The position numbers are program-made. From Verrucomicrobiota bacterium (lineage in GTDB: Bacteria; Verrucomicrobiota; Verrucomicrobiia; Opitutales; Cerasicoccaceae), in NCBI GenBank assembly GCA_039818205.1, contig JBCBUK010000012.1, forward strand, positions 71,239-135,238: a stretch of DNA of 64,000 nucleotides, written 5' to 3'. Below are positions 45,001 through 51,000 of the stretch, piece by piece. Every line of letters starts with the position of its first letter. Position 1 is the stretch's first letter.

Positions 45001-48000
45001 ATAGTAACCCGAATCTATAATTTTCAATTTCTGCCTACCAGTGCTCAAATTCTACTCATGGGAAACGATTCTGGCTTTGCTCAAAATGGCTGTTTGTGAT
45101 CGCAATTTCGGCGGGCCAGGGCACCGAGGTCGAGAGCACAATCCAATTACCGCGACACATTGGCGCATAAAATTTTCCGACGTGGACGTTTGACACCGAA
45201 TAGGATTCCCCCTTATAGCCGCAACTGCATTTATAAATCGAACCCGAAAATCAGACATCCACGTGAGCTATAAACTCTTCATTCCCGGACCTGTCCACGT
45301 ATCAGAAAAGACGCTGCAAGCCATGACCCAATGGGTAATGGGCCACCGCAGTAAAGATTTCGTCGCGCTCTATCAATCCGTTCAGCCTCAATTGCAGGAG
45401 CTGTTCTATACGAAGGACCCCGTTTTCATCAGCACATCCAGCGCCTGGGGCGTCATGGAAGGTGCCATCCGCAACGTCACTAAAAAGGGCGTGCTCAATG
45501 TGATGTCCGGTGCCTTCTCCGACAAATGGAATGACGTGGCTAAGCGCTGTGGCTTGCCCTGTGGCGCCCTGCAGTATGATTGGGGAACCCCGATTGACCC
45601 TGCCGACGTTCGCCGGGAGCTTGAAACTGGCAAATACGACGCCATCACCTTCATCCACAATGAGACCTCGACTGGCACCATGAACCCCCTCGCGGAGATC
45701 ATGGCTGTTCTAAAAGACTTCCCGGATGTCATTTCGATCACCGACACCGTTAGCTCCTTTACCGCGGTCCCAATCAAAAAGGATGAGCTGGGAATCGACG
45801 TCATCCTCACCGGCTCTCAAAAAGCCCTCGCCCTACCGCCAGGCCTGTCGCTTATTTCAGTTTCCGAGCGCGCAATGAAGCGGGCAGAAACTGTCGAAGG
45901 TCGCGGTTACTACTTTGACTTCATCGAGTTCCAAAAGAACTACGAAAAGGGCATGACTCCGAGCACACCGATCATCCCTCTGATTTATGCGCTCAAGAGT
46001 AAGCTCGAGGATATCTTTGAGGAAGGTCTCGAGAATCGCTATGCCCGCCACGAGCGCTTGAACAATCTCGTTCGCGATTGGGGCACCAAACATGGCCTGG
46101 AGCTTCTGCCGCCCGCCGAATTCGGCTCGAAGACGCTTTGCTGCTTCAAAAACGAAAAGGGCATCGACCTCGAAGGCCTTCGCAAGGAACTCAAAGCAAA
46201 ATATAGCTGCGACATCGACGGCGGTTATGGCAAAGTCAAAGGCAAGACCTTCCGTATCTCTAATATGGGAGACGAAACCGACGAAACCATGACTGAACTC
46301 CTGGGCTTCCTCGACGAGCTTCTGCCGCAATTCACGCCCAGGCCTGCGTAAGCCCAATTTAAGCTGAAAGGTCGGGGAGCTCGGCAACGCGCCTCCCGAC
46401 TACTCATCTTCAAGGGCCTTCCAGCCAATTCAGGTCAGTACAAAGATAGAAACTATACACATCATGAAATACATACTTACATGCTTGCTCCTATCTTTAC
46501 CACTGGCCTTGATGTCGGCTCCCAATATTGGGCAAAAAGCTGGCTTTACGGTCGTTACCTACACCGACGTCTTTAGTGGTTTAGAGAATCAACGCATCTT
46601 CAAGGCCAGCGAGATCCGCGCAATAGAAACCACAACTGATGTTGATGGAGAGTTTACTAGCGTCAGGATTGATATTTTATTCCAAACAATCGTTGCCACT
46701 GCCCAGGGCAGCCAACGGCCATTTACAATCGATATTTATGTCAAAGACGCTGTTGAACGAGACCTCATTGTGAATGGCATCTTTGACCAAATGAACGACT
46801 AACCTGGAAAACCTTTCTACACTCGACGACCTACCCTACTGACCGCTGCTAACCAATCTATATGAAGACTTTAGTTATTGCCGAGAAACCATCTGTAGCC
46901 GGAGACCTAGCCAAAGCCTTAGGCAAGGTCCCCAAGAAGGGCGACTTTTATGAGAACGACGAATACGTCATTAGCTCGGCCGTGGGACACCTCGTGGAAC
47001 TGTATATGCCCGAGGACATCAGCAAGGATCTCAAGCGCTGGACGCTGAAGACCCTGCCCATCGTTCCACCAAAGTTTAAGCTCAAGCCAATCGCCAAGAC
47101 CAAGCAAAAGTTTCAAGAGCTCAAGAAACTCATTGCGCGGGATGACGTTGGCCAGGTTATCAATGCTTGTGACGCCGGGCGCGAGGGTGAATTGATTTTC
47201 ACCTACGTTAATGAGCTATCCAAGGGAAAGAAGCCCGTCAAACGGCTTTGGATGTCATCGATGACCAAGCAAGCGATTCAAAAGGCCTTCGCCAGCTTGC
47301 GCGATGACGATGATATGAAGCCCCTGCAGGATGCGGCCCGCTCCCGCAGTGAGGCCGATTGGTTGATCGGGATCAATGGAACTCGTGGGGCCACGGTTGT
47401 TTTTGGTCGCCGTGGCGGCACCGCTGCTACCGTAGGTCGCGTGCAGACACCGACGCTTTCGATGATCTATCGTCGCGAGGTCGAGATTCGCAATTTCAAG
47501 CCGCGCGACTACTGGCGCCTAGTCGCCGACTTCGGAGTAACTGAAGGCGAATACCAAGGCATTTACCAAAAGCCTGACTTTAAGAAAGGCGACGACGAGC
47601 ATGACCGCATCGACCGTCTTTGGGAAAAAGAGAAGGCCGAGCAGGTCCTGCAAGAAGTTCTCAATGGCGGACCAGCGGAAGTTACTGAAGAGAAGAAGCG
47701 GACCCGCCAGTCGAGCCCACGTCTCTACGACTTGACCAGCTTGCAGCGTGAAGCAAACAGCCGTTTCGGATTGGCTGCTGGTCACACGCTCAACATTGCC
47801 CAAGCGCTTTACGAGAAGCACAAGATGATCACCTATCCGCGAACCGACTCGCGGGCCTTACCGGAAGACTATGGTCAGACCGTCAAAAATCTCTTGAGCA
47901 ACCTCGATGAGCCTTACGCCTTGCACGCCGAAAAGGTGTTGAGCAACGGCTGGGTCAAGACAGGCAACAAACGAATTTTCAACGACAAGCAGATCAGCGA

Positions 48001-51000
48001 TCACTTTGCGATCATCCCCACCGATGCAAAGCCGAAGAAGCTAACCGAACTTGAACAGAAGGTATTCGATCTGATTGCCCGCCGTACAATCGCAATCTTC
48101 TTTCCACCGGCTGAGTTCGATGTAACGACCCGCATCAGCAAAGTGGGCGAACACGCCTTCAAAACCGAGGGTAAGGTGCTCGCCGTTGGCGGATGGATGG
48201 ATGTCTACGGTAAGGGCGGCACGGGTGAAGAAACCCTGACGCCGTTGACCGATCCCGATTTTGCCCGCAACCCAAAGGACAAGGTTGCCGGAGCCGATCT
48301 CAAGGAAGCGAATCTTGACGAAGATCAAACGAAACCGCCACCCCGCTACTCGGAAGCCACCTTGCTCTCCGCGATGGAAGGTGCTGGAAAATTGATCGAC
48401 GACGAAGAGCTGGCCGACGCCATGAAGGAGAAAGGCCTCGGTACACCGGCGACCCGCGCGCAGACAATTGATCACCTCGCCCACGAACGCTACATTGAGC
48501 GCCAAGGACGCGAGCTCGTCCCGACCCAAAAAGCTGAAAGCTTAATGGAGTTTCTCGCGAAGTTCGACATCGAGCAACTGACTTCCCCCGCCATGACCGG
48601 CGAATGGGAATACAAGCTTCGCCAAGTTGAGGAAGGAAAGATCTCTCGCGATGAATTCATGAAAGACATCGTGGATGCGACACAGTCGATGGTCGACAAG
48701 CTCAACAGCCCACCTCCACCAGAGAAGACATCCGTCATTTCACCGTCGGATGGTCAGCCGCTGCTGGAAGACCACCGCGCATGGTTCTCGCAAGACAAGA
48801 TCGAAATTCGCGGCAAGGAGTACCCGAAATTCTCCGTCAACAAGGTTATCGGTAATCGTAAGCTCAATCTGACTGAAATCGAAGCGCTGATCGAAAAAAA
48901 AGAGGTTGGACCGCTCGATGGTTTCATTTCTCGAAACGGCAAAGCCTTTTCTGCGCTACTCAAGTTGATTGATAAGGAAAACGGCACCCAACGGGTAGAG
49001 CTCGACTTTGGTAACAACGGCGAGGAAGAACTCGACGAGAACGTTGACCTGAGCCAATACCCGGAAATGGGCCCTTCTCCCATCGACAATACGCCGGTCC
49101 GCGAAACACCAAACGCCTACGTCAGTGAAGGCCGCGACCCCGATGGCAAACCCGCTTTCCGCCTCAGCCGTAATATGCTCGGCAAGGCACTGCCACCCGA
49201 GGAGGTCAAGAAGCTCCTCACCGAGAAGAAAACTGGCCTGATCAAAGGATTTAAATCGAACCGGACCGGTCGCCTGTTTGATGCCCATCTTCTGCTAAAA
49301 GATGACGGCAAGATTGGCTTCGAGTTTCCGCCCCGCCCCGCAAAGAAGAAGTCCGCGAAGAAGGCAGCCAAAAAGGCCGCTAAGAAAACCGCTAACTCCT
49401 AATGAAAATCGAGCTGCCCGACGGGGAAACCCACGCTTACATTTTTGACTGCGACGGGACCTTGGCAGACTCCATGCCGATGCACTATCGGGCGTGGAAA
49501 CAGGCTTTTGAAAAGAACAGTGCGAAGTTTCCCTTCACCTGGGAGTTGTTCTACTCCATGGCGGGCGCGGGGATGTATGACTCCGTTGTCATCCTCAACG
49601 AGCGCTATCAAGACGACCTCGACCCCGATACGGTTGTCCGAGACCAGGATCAGTTTCTTCGGCACGAACTTGATTCCGTCGAACCGATCCACCAGGTCGT
49701 CGAGCTGGCGAAGGAGCTCAAGGAAAAGGGATTTCCCATCGCAGTGGCCTCTGGCGGCGATCGTGCCCATGTTGAGAGCACCCTCACCTACTGCGGTATC
49801 ATTGACTTGTTCGATGCCATTGTGACTAAAAATGACGTCGAGCGCAGCAAGCCTGCTCCCGATGGTTTTTTAAAGGCCGCGGAGTTATTGAGTGTCGCTC
49901 CGGAAAAATGCGTCGTTTTTGAGGACAGCCAATTAGGCATCACGGCAGCAGAAACCTGCGGTATGCGGTGGGTGTTTATTGATCCTGAGATCTATTCTGG
50001 CGGCGCCGGAATTTAGCCAAAAATCGGGTATTCCAGCTCGCTAAGTTGGAGTTAATCAACGGTTAGCAATATCTGACCTTGCTCATTTTGTTCGAATGGG
50101 CATACTGGCGAGGAAACTGCTAAGCCAAGTCCTCCATGCCCAAGAACATAGGATTTATCTCCACCCGATTCGCTGGCACCGACGGCGTTTCTCTCGAAAG
50201 CGCCAAATGGGCTGAAGTCCTCTGGGACGACCGCCACATCAGTTATTGGTACAGTGGCCTCAGCGACCGCGAAGAAGGTATCTCCTACGTGGTCCCCGAG
50301 GCTTATTTTGGCCACCCTGAAAACGAGTGGATCAATCAGCGCCTTTGGAAACGCAATCGGCGAGACCCGCTGGTCTCAGCCCGAATTCGCGACCTAGCTG
50401 ATTATCTAAAGACAACGCTGTATGCGTTTGCCCGCCAGTATGAGTTGGATTTCATCATCCCGCAGAATGCGCTGACCATTCCGATGCATGTCCCCCTGGG
50501 GATCGCGGTCACCGAATTCCTTGCGGAAACGGGGATGCCCGCCATCGCCCACCACCATGATTTCTATTGGGAGCGAACACGTTTCTCAGTAGGATGCATC
50601 CAGGATTACCTGGACTTCGCATTCCCGCCAGGCCTTTCAAACATTCGTAACGTTGTTATCAATCGGCCAGCGCAGGAGCAGTTCGCCTTGCGGAAAGGGG
50701 ATTCAGCCCTCCTCATTCCCAATGTGTTCGACTTTGATCAACCGGCGCCTCAGCCAGATGAATACTCGGATGACATCCGGGAACAGATCGGACTCGAGGA
50801 CGACGATATCCTCATCCTTCAGCCGACGCGGATTGTTCCACGGAAAGGCATTGAGCACGCCATCACGGCCGTTGGCATGCTTAAAGATCCCAAGTGCAAG
50901 CTGGTCATCTCCCATGCGGCGGGAGACGAAGGCATGGACTACAAACACATGCTCGAAGAGAAAGCCCGCGAAGAGAATGTTGATCTTCGCTTTTTCGACG

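What a model noticed while it worked through the whole genome (the two positions that open the first line are those of the whole stretch)
46862..49402. No topoisomerase I (TopA): a Topo III with TopA-type C-terminal repeats is the only chromosomal type IA enzyme, class-wi [...]
The genome has no topA and no second type IIA (topo IV) gene; its chromosomal type IA topoisomerase g03085 is a TopB with two Toprim_Crpt repeats and a lysine-rich tail, features typical of TopA. The swap holds for all Verrucomicrobiia searched, while the other classes of the phylum keep TopA.
Evidence so far: g03085 scores 561.6 on TIGR01056 TopB (cut 515.75) but 213 on TIGR01051 TopA (cut 456.4). TopA over cut-off in 0 of 41 order genomes (47), 0 of 18 class genomes vs 32 of 33 of other classes (49); 10 control genomes pass. 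Single GyrA/ParC-type gene (74, 205). The only other type IA gene is a TopB on the relaxase element of C27 (13). PMC7140829 (passages, call 206) states topo I is found in all bacteria; PMC9369019, PMC10969213, PMC2647321 (passages) do not note this case; search 54 found nothing.
(Added by a program. Inside this text positions count along the whole contig: contig position 71,239 is position 1 of the stretch shown here. "Call 12" and the like, gene names such as g00115 and contig names such as C1 are that model's own, and its searches are not shown. The text may have been shortened before it was handed on; [...] marks where a part breaks off. The agent that wrote the report below was given it as the finding of a first reader that could run no searches.)

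Follow-up and report, generated by a model that had tools for sequence, protein, structure and literature searches.

The report
Topoisomerase III replacing bacterial topoisomerase I
This bacterium and many relatives have lost topoisomerase I, the DNA-relaxing enzyme that reviews say every bacterium has; a plasmid-type topoisomerase III has taken its place, often at the same spot on the chromosome, and probably does its job.

Summary
Confirmed: 46862-49402 encodes an intact 846-aa Topo III (PRK08173 family). The 99.97%-complete genome has no topA, one GyrA/GyrB pair, no Topo IB or VI, and one mobile TopB on C27.

Two first-reader claims fail. The swap is not class-wide: of 121 class genomes, 109 have this TopB only, 11 TopA only, 1 neither, 0 both. 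The repeats (PF13342) are typical of plasmid TopBs, not TopA.

The pattern is also wider than reported. In 201 genomes of a betaproteobacterial order, 94 have this TopB only, 105 TopA only, 1 both. TopB often sits in topA's slot (dprA-X-xerC). One lineage inside a TopA-keeping family carries a chimera at that slot: TopB core plus the host TopA's zinc fingers. Published Tn-seq tables list topB as essential in Burkholderia cenocepacia and Caballeronia, which have Topo IV and no topA row.

Best reading: a plasmid-related Topo III subfamily with tandem ssDNA-binding ribbon units has repeatedly displaced topA and does its supercoil-relaxing job (about 0.7; activity untested). A 2026 paper still says Topo I is in all bacteria; no searched paper notes this loss.

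The parts
46862..49402 (+). topB, PRK08173-type DNA topoisomerase III, 846 aa; the genome's only chromosomal type IA topoisomerase
   Evidence: tree
46868..47257 (+). Toprim domain (aa 3-132), with Glu8 followed by the Topo III-diagnostic Lys9
   Evidence: PF01751; motif position; diagnostic stated in PMC10969213
47318..48664 (+). Type IA catalytic core (PF01131, aa 153-601)
   Evidence: best PDB matches are E. coli Topo III, E 3e-92, against 2.5e-27 for E. coli Topo I
47834..47839 (+). Catalytic Tyr325 followed by the Topo III-diagnostic Pro326 (TopAs have Tyr-Met)
   Evidence: PMC10969213
48383..48433 (+). Topo III-type insertion at the position of the E. coli decatenation loop (about aa 508-524); acidic, as in plasmid TopBs; absent from TopAs
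   Evidence: alignment; the name 'decatenation loop' for this stretch is recalled
48710..48844 (+). Ribbon module 1 (about aa 617-661): cysteine-free form of the family's C4 zinc ribbon; keeps aromatics Trp641 and Phe657
   Evidence: weak structural match to E. coli Topo I 589-636, Z 4.3, rmsd 3.3, 43 aligned
48827..49009 (+). Toprim_Crpt repeat 1 (PF13342)
49064..49159 (+). Ribbon module 2 (about aa 735-766): the four Cys kept by 118 of 129 aligned sequences are lost here; Tyr753 and Phe766 are kept
49157..49330 (+). Toprim_Crpt repeat 2 (PF13342)
49337..49399 (+). Lys/Ala-rich tail (about 21 aa); common but not universal in the family (absent from the three-repeat forms)

Best explanation
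The gene belongs to a Topo III subfamily (NCBIfam PRK08173) closely related to TopBs of proteobacterial plasmids. It has become the housekeeping type IA enzyme by displacing topA. SHOWN: Topo III core; no topA in the genome; near-perfect mutual exclusion with TopA; frequent position in topA's chromosomal slot; a chimeric gene in one lineage. At least three displacements are separately supported (the chimeric genus g138, family f20, the betaproteobacteria), in addition to the one or more that cover most of the class. INFERRED: the enzyme binds single-stranded DNA in underwound regions, cuts one strand with Tyr325 and passes the other strand. In this way it relaxes the negative supercoils made by gyrase and by transcription and suppresses R-loops, which is Topo I's job. 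The 2-4 tandem [zinc-ribbon-like + Crpt] units and the basic tail, absent or minimal in E. coli Topo III, probably supply the extra ssDNA grip (and perhaps the RNA-polymerase contact) that TopA gets from its own ribbons. In genomes with a single gyrase, as here, it probably also helps decatenate. In the window's genome the ancestral dprA-X-xerC cluster has since broken up.
For: Mutual exclusion. Class: 109 TopB only, 11 TopA only, 1 neither, 0 both, of 121. Betaproteobacterial order: 94 TopB only, 105 TopA only, 1 both, 1 partial TopA, of 201. Kin are not independent, but the lineages are unrelated. Five single-contig class genomes each have exactly one type IA gene and one GyrA; four of the five lack Topo IB. 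Slot: dprA lies directly upstream of topA in 8 of 8 class and 6 of 6 betaproteobacterial TopA loci. It lies upstream of this topB in 18 of 50 class genomes (dprA upstream or xerC downstream in 28 of 50) and in 13 of 16 betaproteobacterial loci. Chimera: G265 and G281 carry a TopB core plus one native unit, then three PF01396 fingers 66-70% identical to TopA of their own family and 38-41% to TopA of other classes. The gene sits in the aroB-c4-dprA-X-xerC slot. RpoB nests them among TopA-keeping relatives. The core is 72-74% identical to Udaeobacter-named TopBs with native repeats. 26 other protein clusters share the chimeric end. Genetics in supplements: topB is essential in B. cenocepacia K56-2, flagged E in J2315 and B. 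thailandensis. It is essential in 3 of 3 media in Caballeronia insecticola, beside a non-essential dprA. Both organisms have essential parC/parE, a dispensable Topo IB and no Topo I row. E. coli topB mutants grow normally, and E. coli Topo III can relax transcription-induced supercoils less efficiently (PMC7140829 passages).
Against: No activity, supercoiling or R-loop data for any member; no essentiality data found for Verrucomicrobia. The core keeps all three Topo III marks (Lys9, Pro326, the loop insertion), and nothing in it points to Topo I-like kinetics. E. coli and B. subtilis survive without type IA enzymes when Topo IV is amplified (PMC7140829 abstract). 56 of 121 class genomes have a second GyrA/ParC-type gene. 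The window's own gene is not in the topA slot, and none of the 7 order-level loci examined is. The B. pseudomallei orthologue carries no essential flag in the same table. I matched the Tn-seq genes to this family by name, length (881 aa) and dprA context, not by sequence. The ribbon's match to Topo I is weak (Z 4.3), and the window's protein has lost all eight ribbon cysteines. G000 also has a second, mobile TopB that could contribute.
Confidence: 0.7

Rival explanations
1. The enzyme is still mainly a decatenase or resolver of recombination intermediates. TopA was lost because other factors (Topo IV, Topo IB, a weak gyrase, RNase H) handle negative supercoils. The link to dprA reflects recombination.
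For: All Topo III core marks are kept. Topo IV can stand in for type IA enzymes in E. coli and B. subtilis (PMC7140829). 56 of 121 class genomes have a ParC-like gene. B. cenocepacia and Caballeronia have Topo IV and Topo IB.
Against: 65 of 121 class genomes have a single GyrA-type gene. Four single-contig genomes have only gyrase plus this TopB among the families searched. TopA and E. coli-type TopB coexist in E. coli, yet this TopB almost never coexists with TopA. The gene is essential where Topo IV is intact, Topo IB is dispensable and dprA is dispensable. One lineage kept the TopA zinc fingers on the TopB core.
Confidence: 0.2
2. The gene was fixed chiefly to replace Topo IV as the chromosome decatenase, and topA decayed afterwards.
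For: G000 and 64 other class genomes have one GyrA-type gene. E. coli Topo III overproduction suppresses parC/parE mutants (PMC7140829).
Against: Presence does not track loss of ParC. It is present in genomes with two GyrA/ParC genes (17 of 21 in the order) and in betaproteobacteria with essential Topo IV. All 11 TopA-keeping class genomes also have a single GyrA-type match.
Confidence: 0.07
3. Artefact: topA is present but missed (assembly gap or extreme divergence), or this protein is a misnamed, divergent TopA.
For: G000 has 66 contigs and 908 withheld bases. One class genome (G278) and one other-class genome (G191) show no type IA match at all, so gaps do happen.
Against: Single-contig genomes show the same state. 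10 control genomes and 158 of 167 other-class genomes pass the same TopA test. dprA lies mid-contig in G000 with no topoisomerase beside it. The tree puts the protein among TopBs, with the TopA side split off at support 1.0.
Confidence: 0.02

Closest known systems
NCBIfam NF006032 / PRK08173 'DNA topoisomerase III' (equivalog)
   Same: Full-length member, 1058.4 bits against a cut-off of 1058. Databases already name the relatives 'DNA topoisomerase III'.
   Different: The name implies an accessory decatenase. The family model says nothing about its carriers lacking topA, its place in topA's slot or the chimeras. The window's copy has cysteine-free ribbons.
E. coli Topo III (TopB)
   Same: Closest solved structure (E 3e-92). 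Lys after the Toprim Glu, Pro after the catalytic Tyr, loop insertion and basic tail are all shared.
   Different: About 33% identical and on another branch. E. coli's enzyme has no C-terminal repeats, is dispensable and coexists with TopA. Its loop is basic; here it is acidic.
Plasmid TopBs of Proteobacteria (Bordetella, Xanthomonas, Methylibium, Pseudomonas, Cupriavidus, Janthinobacterium, Yersinia plasmids)
   Same: 40-44% identical. One clade with the chromosomal family, support 100/100. Same PF13342 repeats.
   Different: They are accessory genes on mobile replicons, not the host's only type IA enzyme. Whether they are sister to the chromosomal family or nested in it is unresolved (75.6/56).
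Bacterial Topo I (TopA)
   Same: Same chromosomal slot in many genomes, mutual exclusion, essentiality and tandem ribbon-type C-terminal modules: it probably works like TopA.
   Different: About 25% identity and below cut-off. It lacks the TopA motifs and has no PF01396, PF13368 or PF08272 match. It is not a member.
Archaeal Topo III as the only type IA enzyme (for example Sulfolobus 'TopA', a decatenase)
   Same: A cell whose only classical type IA enzyme is a Topo III (PMC8185306, PMC10969213 passages).
   Different: Those hosts rely on Topo VI, and many have no gyrase. Here the Topo III must balance gyrase in a bacterium with no Topo VI.

Membership tests
Topo III (TopB) subfamily | Lys directly after the first Toprim Glu (PMC10969213) | tested here: met
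   Glu8-Lys9
Topo III (TopB) subfamily | Pro directly after the catalytic Tyr (PMC10969213) | tested here: met
   Tyr325-Pro326
Topo III (TopB) subfamily | Insertion at the decatenation-loop position, absent from Topo I (feature recalled) | tested here: met
   Insertion present at the aligned position, acidic rather than basic
Topo III (TopB) subfamily | Curated HMM cut-offs and tree position | tested here: met
   TIGR01056 561.6 over 515.75; NF005829 628.7 over 597; TopB side of the tree
Topo III (TopB) subfamily | Decatenation preferred over relaxation | not testable with these tools
   Needs an enzyme assay
PRK08173 / NF006032 | Whole-protein score over 1058 | tested here: met
   1058.4; marginal, and only 68 of 121 class genomes pass although 109 have strong matches
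Bacterial Topo I (TopA) | TIGR01051 over 456.4 and TopA active-site motifs (no Lys after the Glu, no Pro after the Tyr) | tested here: not met
   216.8 bits; motifs differ
Bacterial Topo I (TopA) | C-terminal Topo_C_ZnRpt (PF01396) or Topo_C_Rpt (PF13368) by sequence | tested here: not met
   Only PF13342 is found, at E up to 0.1
Bacterial Topo I (TopA) | C-terminal modules with the Topo I zinc-ribbon fold | tested here: inconclusive
   C-terminal model pLDDT 91.6. Top VIA hit is E. coli Topo I 589-636, Z 4.3, rmsd 3.3, 43 aligned; M. smegmatis Topo I scores Z 2.3. No Foldseek match.
Bacterial Topo I (TopA) | Relaxes transcription-induced negative supercoils, binds RNA polymerase, prevents R-loops | not testable with these tools
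   Only indirect: exclusion, slot, chimera, essentiality tables
Reverse gyrase | Fused SF2 helicase domain | tested here: not met
   846 aa, no helicase domain; TIGR01054 115.7 against 471.7

The most novel reading that the evidence does not exclude
Bacteria have a second, unrecognised housekeeping solution for relaxing negative supercoils: a plasmid-related Topo III with tandem ribbon/Crpt ssDNA-binding units that fully substitutes for Topo I. It has spread between phyla by transfer and swapped itself into the topA locus several times, once by recombination inside the gene that left the host's TopA zinc fingers on the Topo III core. About nine in ten sampled Verrucomicrobiia and about half of a sampled betaproteobacterial order, including Burkholderia-group bacteria, would have no Topo I. 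The Topo I/Topo III division of labour would then be set largely by the C-terminal modules and not by the core.
Probability: 0.55. Interest if true: 0.8.

Novelty: new variant of a known kind. Interest (0 to 1): 0.7.

Why it matters
Five papers read here in passages, from 2009 to 2026, say that every bacterium has Topo I, or that TopA plus gyrase is the minimal set (PMC2647321, PMC7140829, PMC7398561, PMC10969213, PMC13244152). The genome counts contradict that for two large lineages.

The finding gives natural material for an open question that PMC7140829 poses: can Topo III really do Topo I's job, and what decides relaxation versus decatenation? The natural TopB-core/TopA-finger chimera and the cysteine-free variant in this window are ready-made domain-swap experiments.

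It also means that conclusions about bacterial Topo I as a universal antibacterial target, or about the Topo I-RNA polymerase contact, may not carry over to these groups. The protein family itself is already named, so the novelty lies in its distribution, history and inferred role.

Tried and rejected
Folding the whole protein from a single sequence failed (mean pLDDT 37.4) and was not used. Foldseek of the C-terminal model found nothing at E <= 0.001. A profile of the C-terminal region found no PDB sequence relative (best E 0.41). The Crpt part has no clear structural match; this is not evidence of a new fold.

The promoter scan found 0 sigma-70-like sites against 1.7 expected, and terminator-like hits were at chance level: uninformative.

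Paper searches found no paper that notes loss of topA in Verrucomicrobia or Betaproteobacteria, and no Verrucomicrobia essentiality table. The two Tn-seq papers do not mention topoisomerases in their main text. Subscription papers are not in the library, so an earlier mention, for example in older topoisomerase phylogenies, cannot be excluded. Earlier scan findings: nothing.

Rejected: 'class-wide'; 'TopA-type repeats and tail'; 'no Topo IV' as a class trait; a missed or divergent topA. The RpoB tree could not place the TopA-keeping families within the class, so one loss versus several in the main part of the class is left open. One search (Toprim search in genomes with gaps) found no intact type IA gene in G278 or G191; they are counted as 'neither'. 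Topo VIII and expression data were not searched.
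Full report
OBSERVATION. The window holds an intact ORF at 46862-49402 (+), 846 aa; this is G000:C12:118100-120640. It scores 1058.4 on NF006032 (PRK08173, DNA topoisomerase III; cut 1058), 561.6 on TIGR01056 topB (cut 515.75) and 216.8 on TIGR01051 topA (cut 456.4). Pfam finds Toprim, the type IA core and two PF13342 repeats. The two Topo III diagnostics given in PMC10969213 (passage) are both present: Glu8-Lys9 and Tyr325-Pro326. The insertion at the position of the E. coli decatenation loop is also there (loop name recalled). The best solved relatives are E. 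coli Topo III chains (E 3e-92; Topo I 2.5e-27). A FastTree of 93 type IA cores (565 columns) separates TopA from TopB with support 1.0 and puts the protein with TopB.

THE GENOME. G000 (4.85 Mb, 66 contigs, 99.97% complete, 908 bases withheld) has two type IA genes by HMM search, by tblastn and unfiltered phmmer, and by five TopA queries plus a 26-sequence TopA profile. The second gene, on C27, is an 808-aa TopB 1.3 kb from a TrwC relaxase and branches with mobile and E. coli-type TopBs. There is one GyrA, one GyrB, no Topo IB and no Topo VI A; the controls rang as expected. The nearest named proteins come from Puniceicoccales, Cerasicoccus and Ruficoccus records, so the order is taken to be Opitutales (inferred).

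SCOPE IN THE PHYLUM. A class-level sample reached families that sample had missed. Of the same 121 genomes, 109 have a strong PRK08173 match and no TopA, 11 have TopA (745-806 bits; families f53, f58, f65) and no such TopB, 1 (G278, 290 contigs) has neither, and none has both. So 'class-wide' is wrong. Of the 9 other-class genomes below the cut-off, four are family f20, which has this TopB instead. Three have TopA broken at contig ends, G191 has no match, and G250 was not inspected. Five single-contig class genomes each have exactly one type IA gene and one GyrA; four have no Topo IB. Lack of a ParC-like gene is not class-wide: 65 of 121 genomes have one PF00521 match and 56 have two or more (counted by hand from the table).

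SCOPE OUTSIDE THE PHYLUM. A search of named genomes with a class member's TopB returned five betaproteobacterial records at 64-66% identity; four of the five have a single type IA gene. In 201 genomes of that order (GTDB Burkholderiales, name recalled), TopA passed in 106 and this TopB was full-strength in 95 (94 over cut-off plus one split over two contigs). Only G371 has both. Its TopA-like gene scores 488, lies on a 105-kb contig and branches deep. G480 has a partial TopA only. In an IQ-TREE of 53 TopBs (602 columns, LG+G4; TopAs and several long or redundant rows left out), the betaproteobacterial and f20 proteins form a clade with Limisphaerales-type class proteins (SH-aLRT/UFBoot 99.9/100). 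The whole chromosomal family plus seven proteobacterial plasmid TopBs and one second-copy TopB forms a clade at 100/100. Family f3 of the window's order groups with f10/f14 (99.6/100), not with its order, while RpoB keeps the order together. The gene therefore moves horizontally. No AU test was run, and direction is inferred from nesting only.

POSITION. TopA loci show the ancestral cluster aroB-c4-dprA-topA-xerC. dprA is directly upstream in 8 of 8 class, 8 of 12 other-class and 6 of 6 betaproteobacterial TopA loci. This topB has dprA directly upstream in 18 of 50 class genomes examined, dprA upstream or xerC within 1.5 kb downstream in 28 of 50, and dprA upstream in 13 of 16 betaproteobacterial loci. 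Thirty class loci had only 1.5-kb flanks and some end at contig edges. The window's gene has moved: it lies between a 112-aa ORF with no Pfam match and a HAD hydrolase, while dprA, aroB and c4 are on C3 and the best xerC match is on C17.

A DISPLACEMENT CAUGHT INSIDE A GENE. Genus g138 (G265, G281) belongs to family f58, whose other 9 sampled members keep TopA. RpoB nests it among them (0.985 with G293). Its gene sits in the aroB-c4-dprA-X-xerC slot. It encodes a TopB core and one native repeat unit, followed by three PF01396 zinc fingers. The fingers are 66-70% identical to TopA of f58 genomes G263, G267 and G277 and 38-41% to TopA of other classes. The core is 72-74% identical to Udaeobacter-named TopBs that carry 3-4 native units and no TopA fingers. 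It shares an insertion of about 30 aa with them and groups with them at 1.0. Twenty-six other protein clusters among the 120 listed have the same chimeric end, so this is not an assembly error. The simplest reading is recombination of an incoming topB into the 5' part of topA.

THE C-TERMINUS. The TopA repeat of the literature is PF13368 (PMC9369019, part 1 of 6 and passages). PF13342 was found in 0 of 7 TopAs and in 10 of 13 TopBs from the plasmid collection; among 14 control genomes it rang only in B. thetaiotaomicron. Basic tails also occur on E. coli TopB (PMC5714199 passage). However, an alignment of 129 C-terminal regions shows that each unit is a C4 ribbon followed by a Crpt. 118 of 129 keep all four Cys of unit 2, with conserved aromatics beside the third and fourth Cys, much like the aromatics that stack on ssDNA in TopA ribbons (PMC9369019). 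The window's protein has no Cys after residue 585 but keeps Trp641, Phe657, Tyr753 and Phe766. The C-terminal model is confident (pLDDT 91.6). Its top match among 48,161 chains is E. coli Topo I 589-636 (Z 4.3, rmsd 3.3, 43 aligned), which is weak and only a lead.

GENETICS FROM OTHERS. The supplement of PMC5729917 has five 'topoisomerase' rows: Topo III (BCAL0462; essential in K56-2, flagged E in J2315 and B. thailandensis, not flagged in B. pseudomallei), Topo IV A and B (essential), and two non-essential rows (a Topo VI A-like protein and a COG3569 enzyme). No row is named Topo I. The all-gene sheet of PMC10809759 lists gyrB, topB (881 aa), parE and parC as essential in 3 of 3 media and Topo IB as non-essential. 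It has no topA row, and topB lies two genes downstream of a non-essential dprA. Neither main text mentions topoisomerases. I saw only the matching supplement rows, and family membership of these genes rests on name, length and context.

MECHANISM. Shown: Topo III identity, absence of topA, exclusion, slot, chimera. From established knowledge: gyrase-bearing bacteria need a relaxing activity; topA is essential where Topo III and IV are absent; E. coli Topo III can relax transcription-induced supercoils less efficiently and is dispensable (PMC10969213 and PMC7140829 passages); it relaxes in fast runs with long pauses (PMC3488232 abstract). Inferred: this subfamily relaxes negative supercoils and limits R-loops in place of Topo I, with the tandem ribbon/Crpt units giving the ssDNA grip that shortens those pauses (0.7). 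Rivals: it remains a decatenase and other enzymes cover relaxation (0.2); it replaced Topo IV first (0.07); artefact (0.02).

NOVELTY. The family is named in NCBIfam and the proteins are annotated as Topo III. Statements that Topo I is in all bacteria, or that TopA plus gyrase is the minimal set, were read as passages in PMC2647321, PMC7140829, PMC7398561, PMC10969213 and PMC13244152 from 2026. PMC8185306 (passages) says instead that all cells have a type IA enzyme 'apparently' of the Topo III subfamily, citing unpublished results, and does not describe this case. Searches found no paper noting the loss; subscription literature was not searchable. Verdict: a new variant of a known kind, real and broader than first reported, with the function strongly implied but unmeasured. 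Interest 0.7.

Noticed in passing
L084:5837-8362, L085:5746-8256, L087:5989-8508, L089:5816-8281 (TopA of other classes of the phylum): These TopAs have a C-terminal region of about 260-280 aa with no Pfam match and few or no cysteines: possibly an undescribed TopA C-terminal domain.
   Followed up: no
L003:2167-14954 (G000:C27): Mobile element with a TrwC relaxase/helicase/Toprim protein (1706 aa), a TopB with two C4 fingers, and nearby a PLP decarboxylase, amino-acid permease, Crp-type regulator and an IS481-like transposase.
   Followed up: partly
L098:6320-8713, L099:5365-7707, L100:5973-8675: Some genomes of the window's order carry a second, more distant TopB. In G036 it lies tail-to-tail with gyrA.
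   Followed up: partly
L078, L103 (family f3 of the window's order): Their TopB groups with families f10/f14 of another order (99.6/100) against the RpoB tree: one TopB probably replaced another.
   Followed up: partly
window 49402-50016: A HAD hydrolase gene starts on the last base of the topB stop codon, which suggests translational coupling. It was not among the neighbours that recurred across loci.
   Followed up: no
window 50136-53163: Glycosyltransferase family 1 gene followed by an alpha-amylase-family gene; possibly compatible-solute metabolism (recalled guess).
   Followed up: no
window 53174-55824 (- strand): The translations look like an ATP-dependent DNA ligase and a ligase-associated exonuclease (by eye, no family search).
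   Followed up: no
L220 (G371:C3) and G251:C39/C45: G371's TopA-like gene is a deep-branching form on a 105-kb contig. G251 has two TopA copies but 6% contamination.
   Followed up: partly
L216, L219 and other betaproteobacterial loci; NF011313: The protein also scores 826.6 on PRK14724, a longer Topo III model. Some betaproteobacterial members are about 980 aa, which suggests an extra C-terminal domain (a SWIB fusion, recalled and not tested).
   Followed up: no
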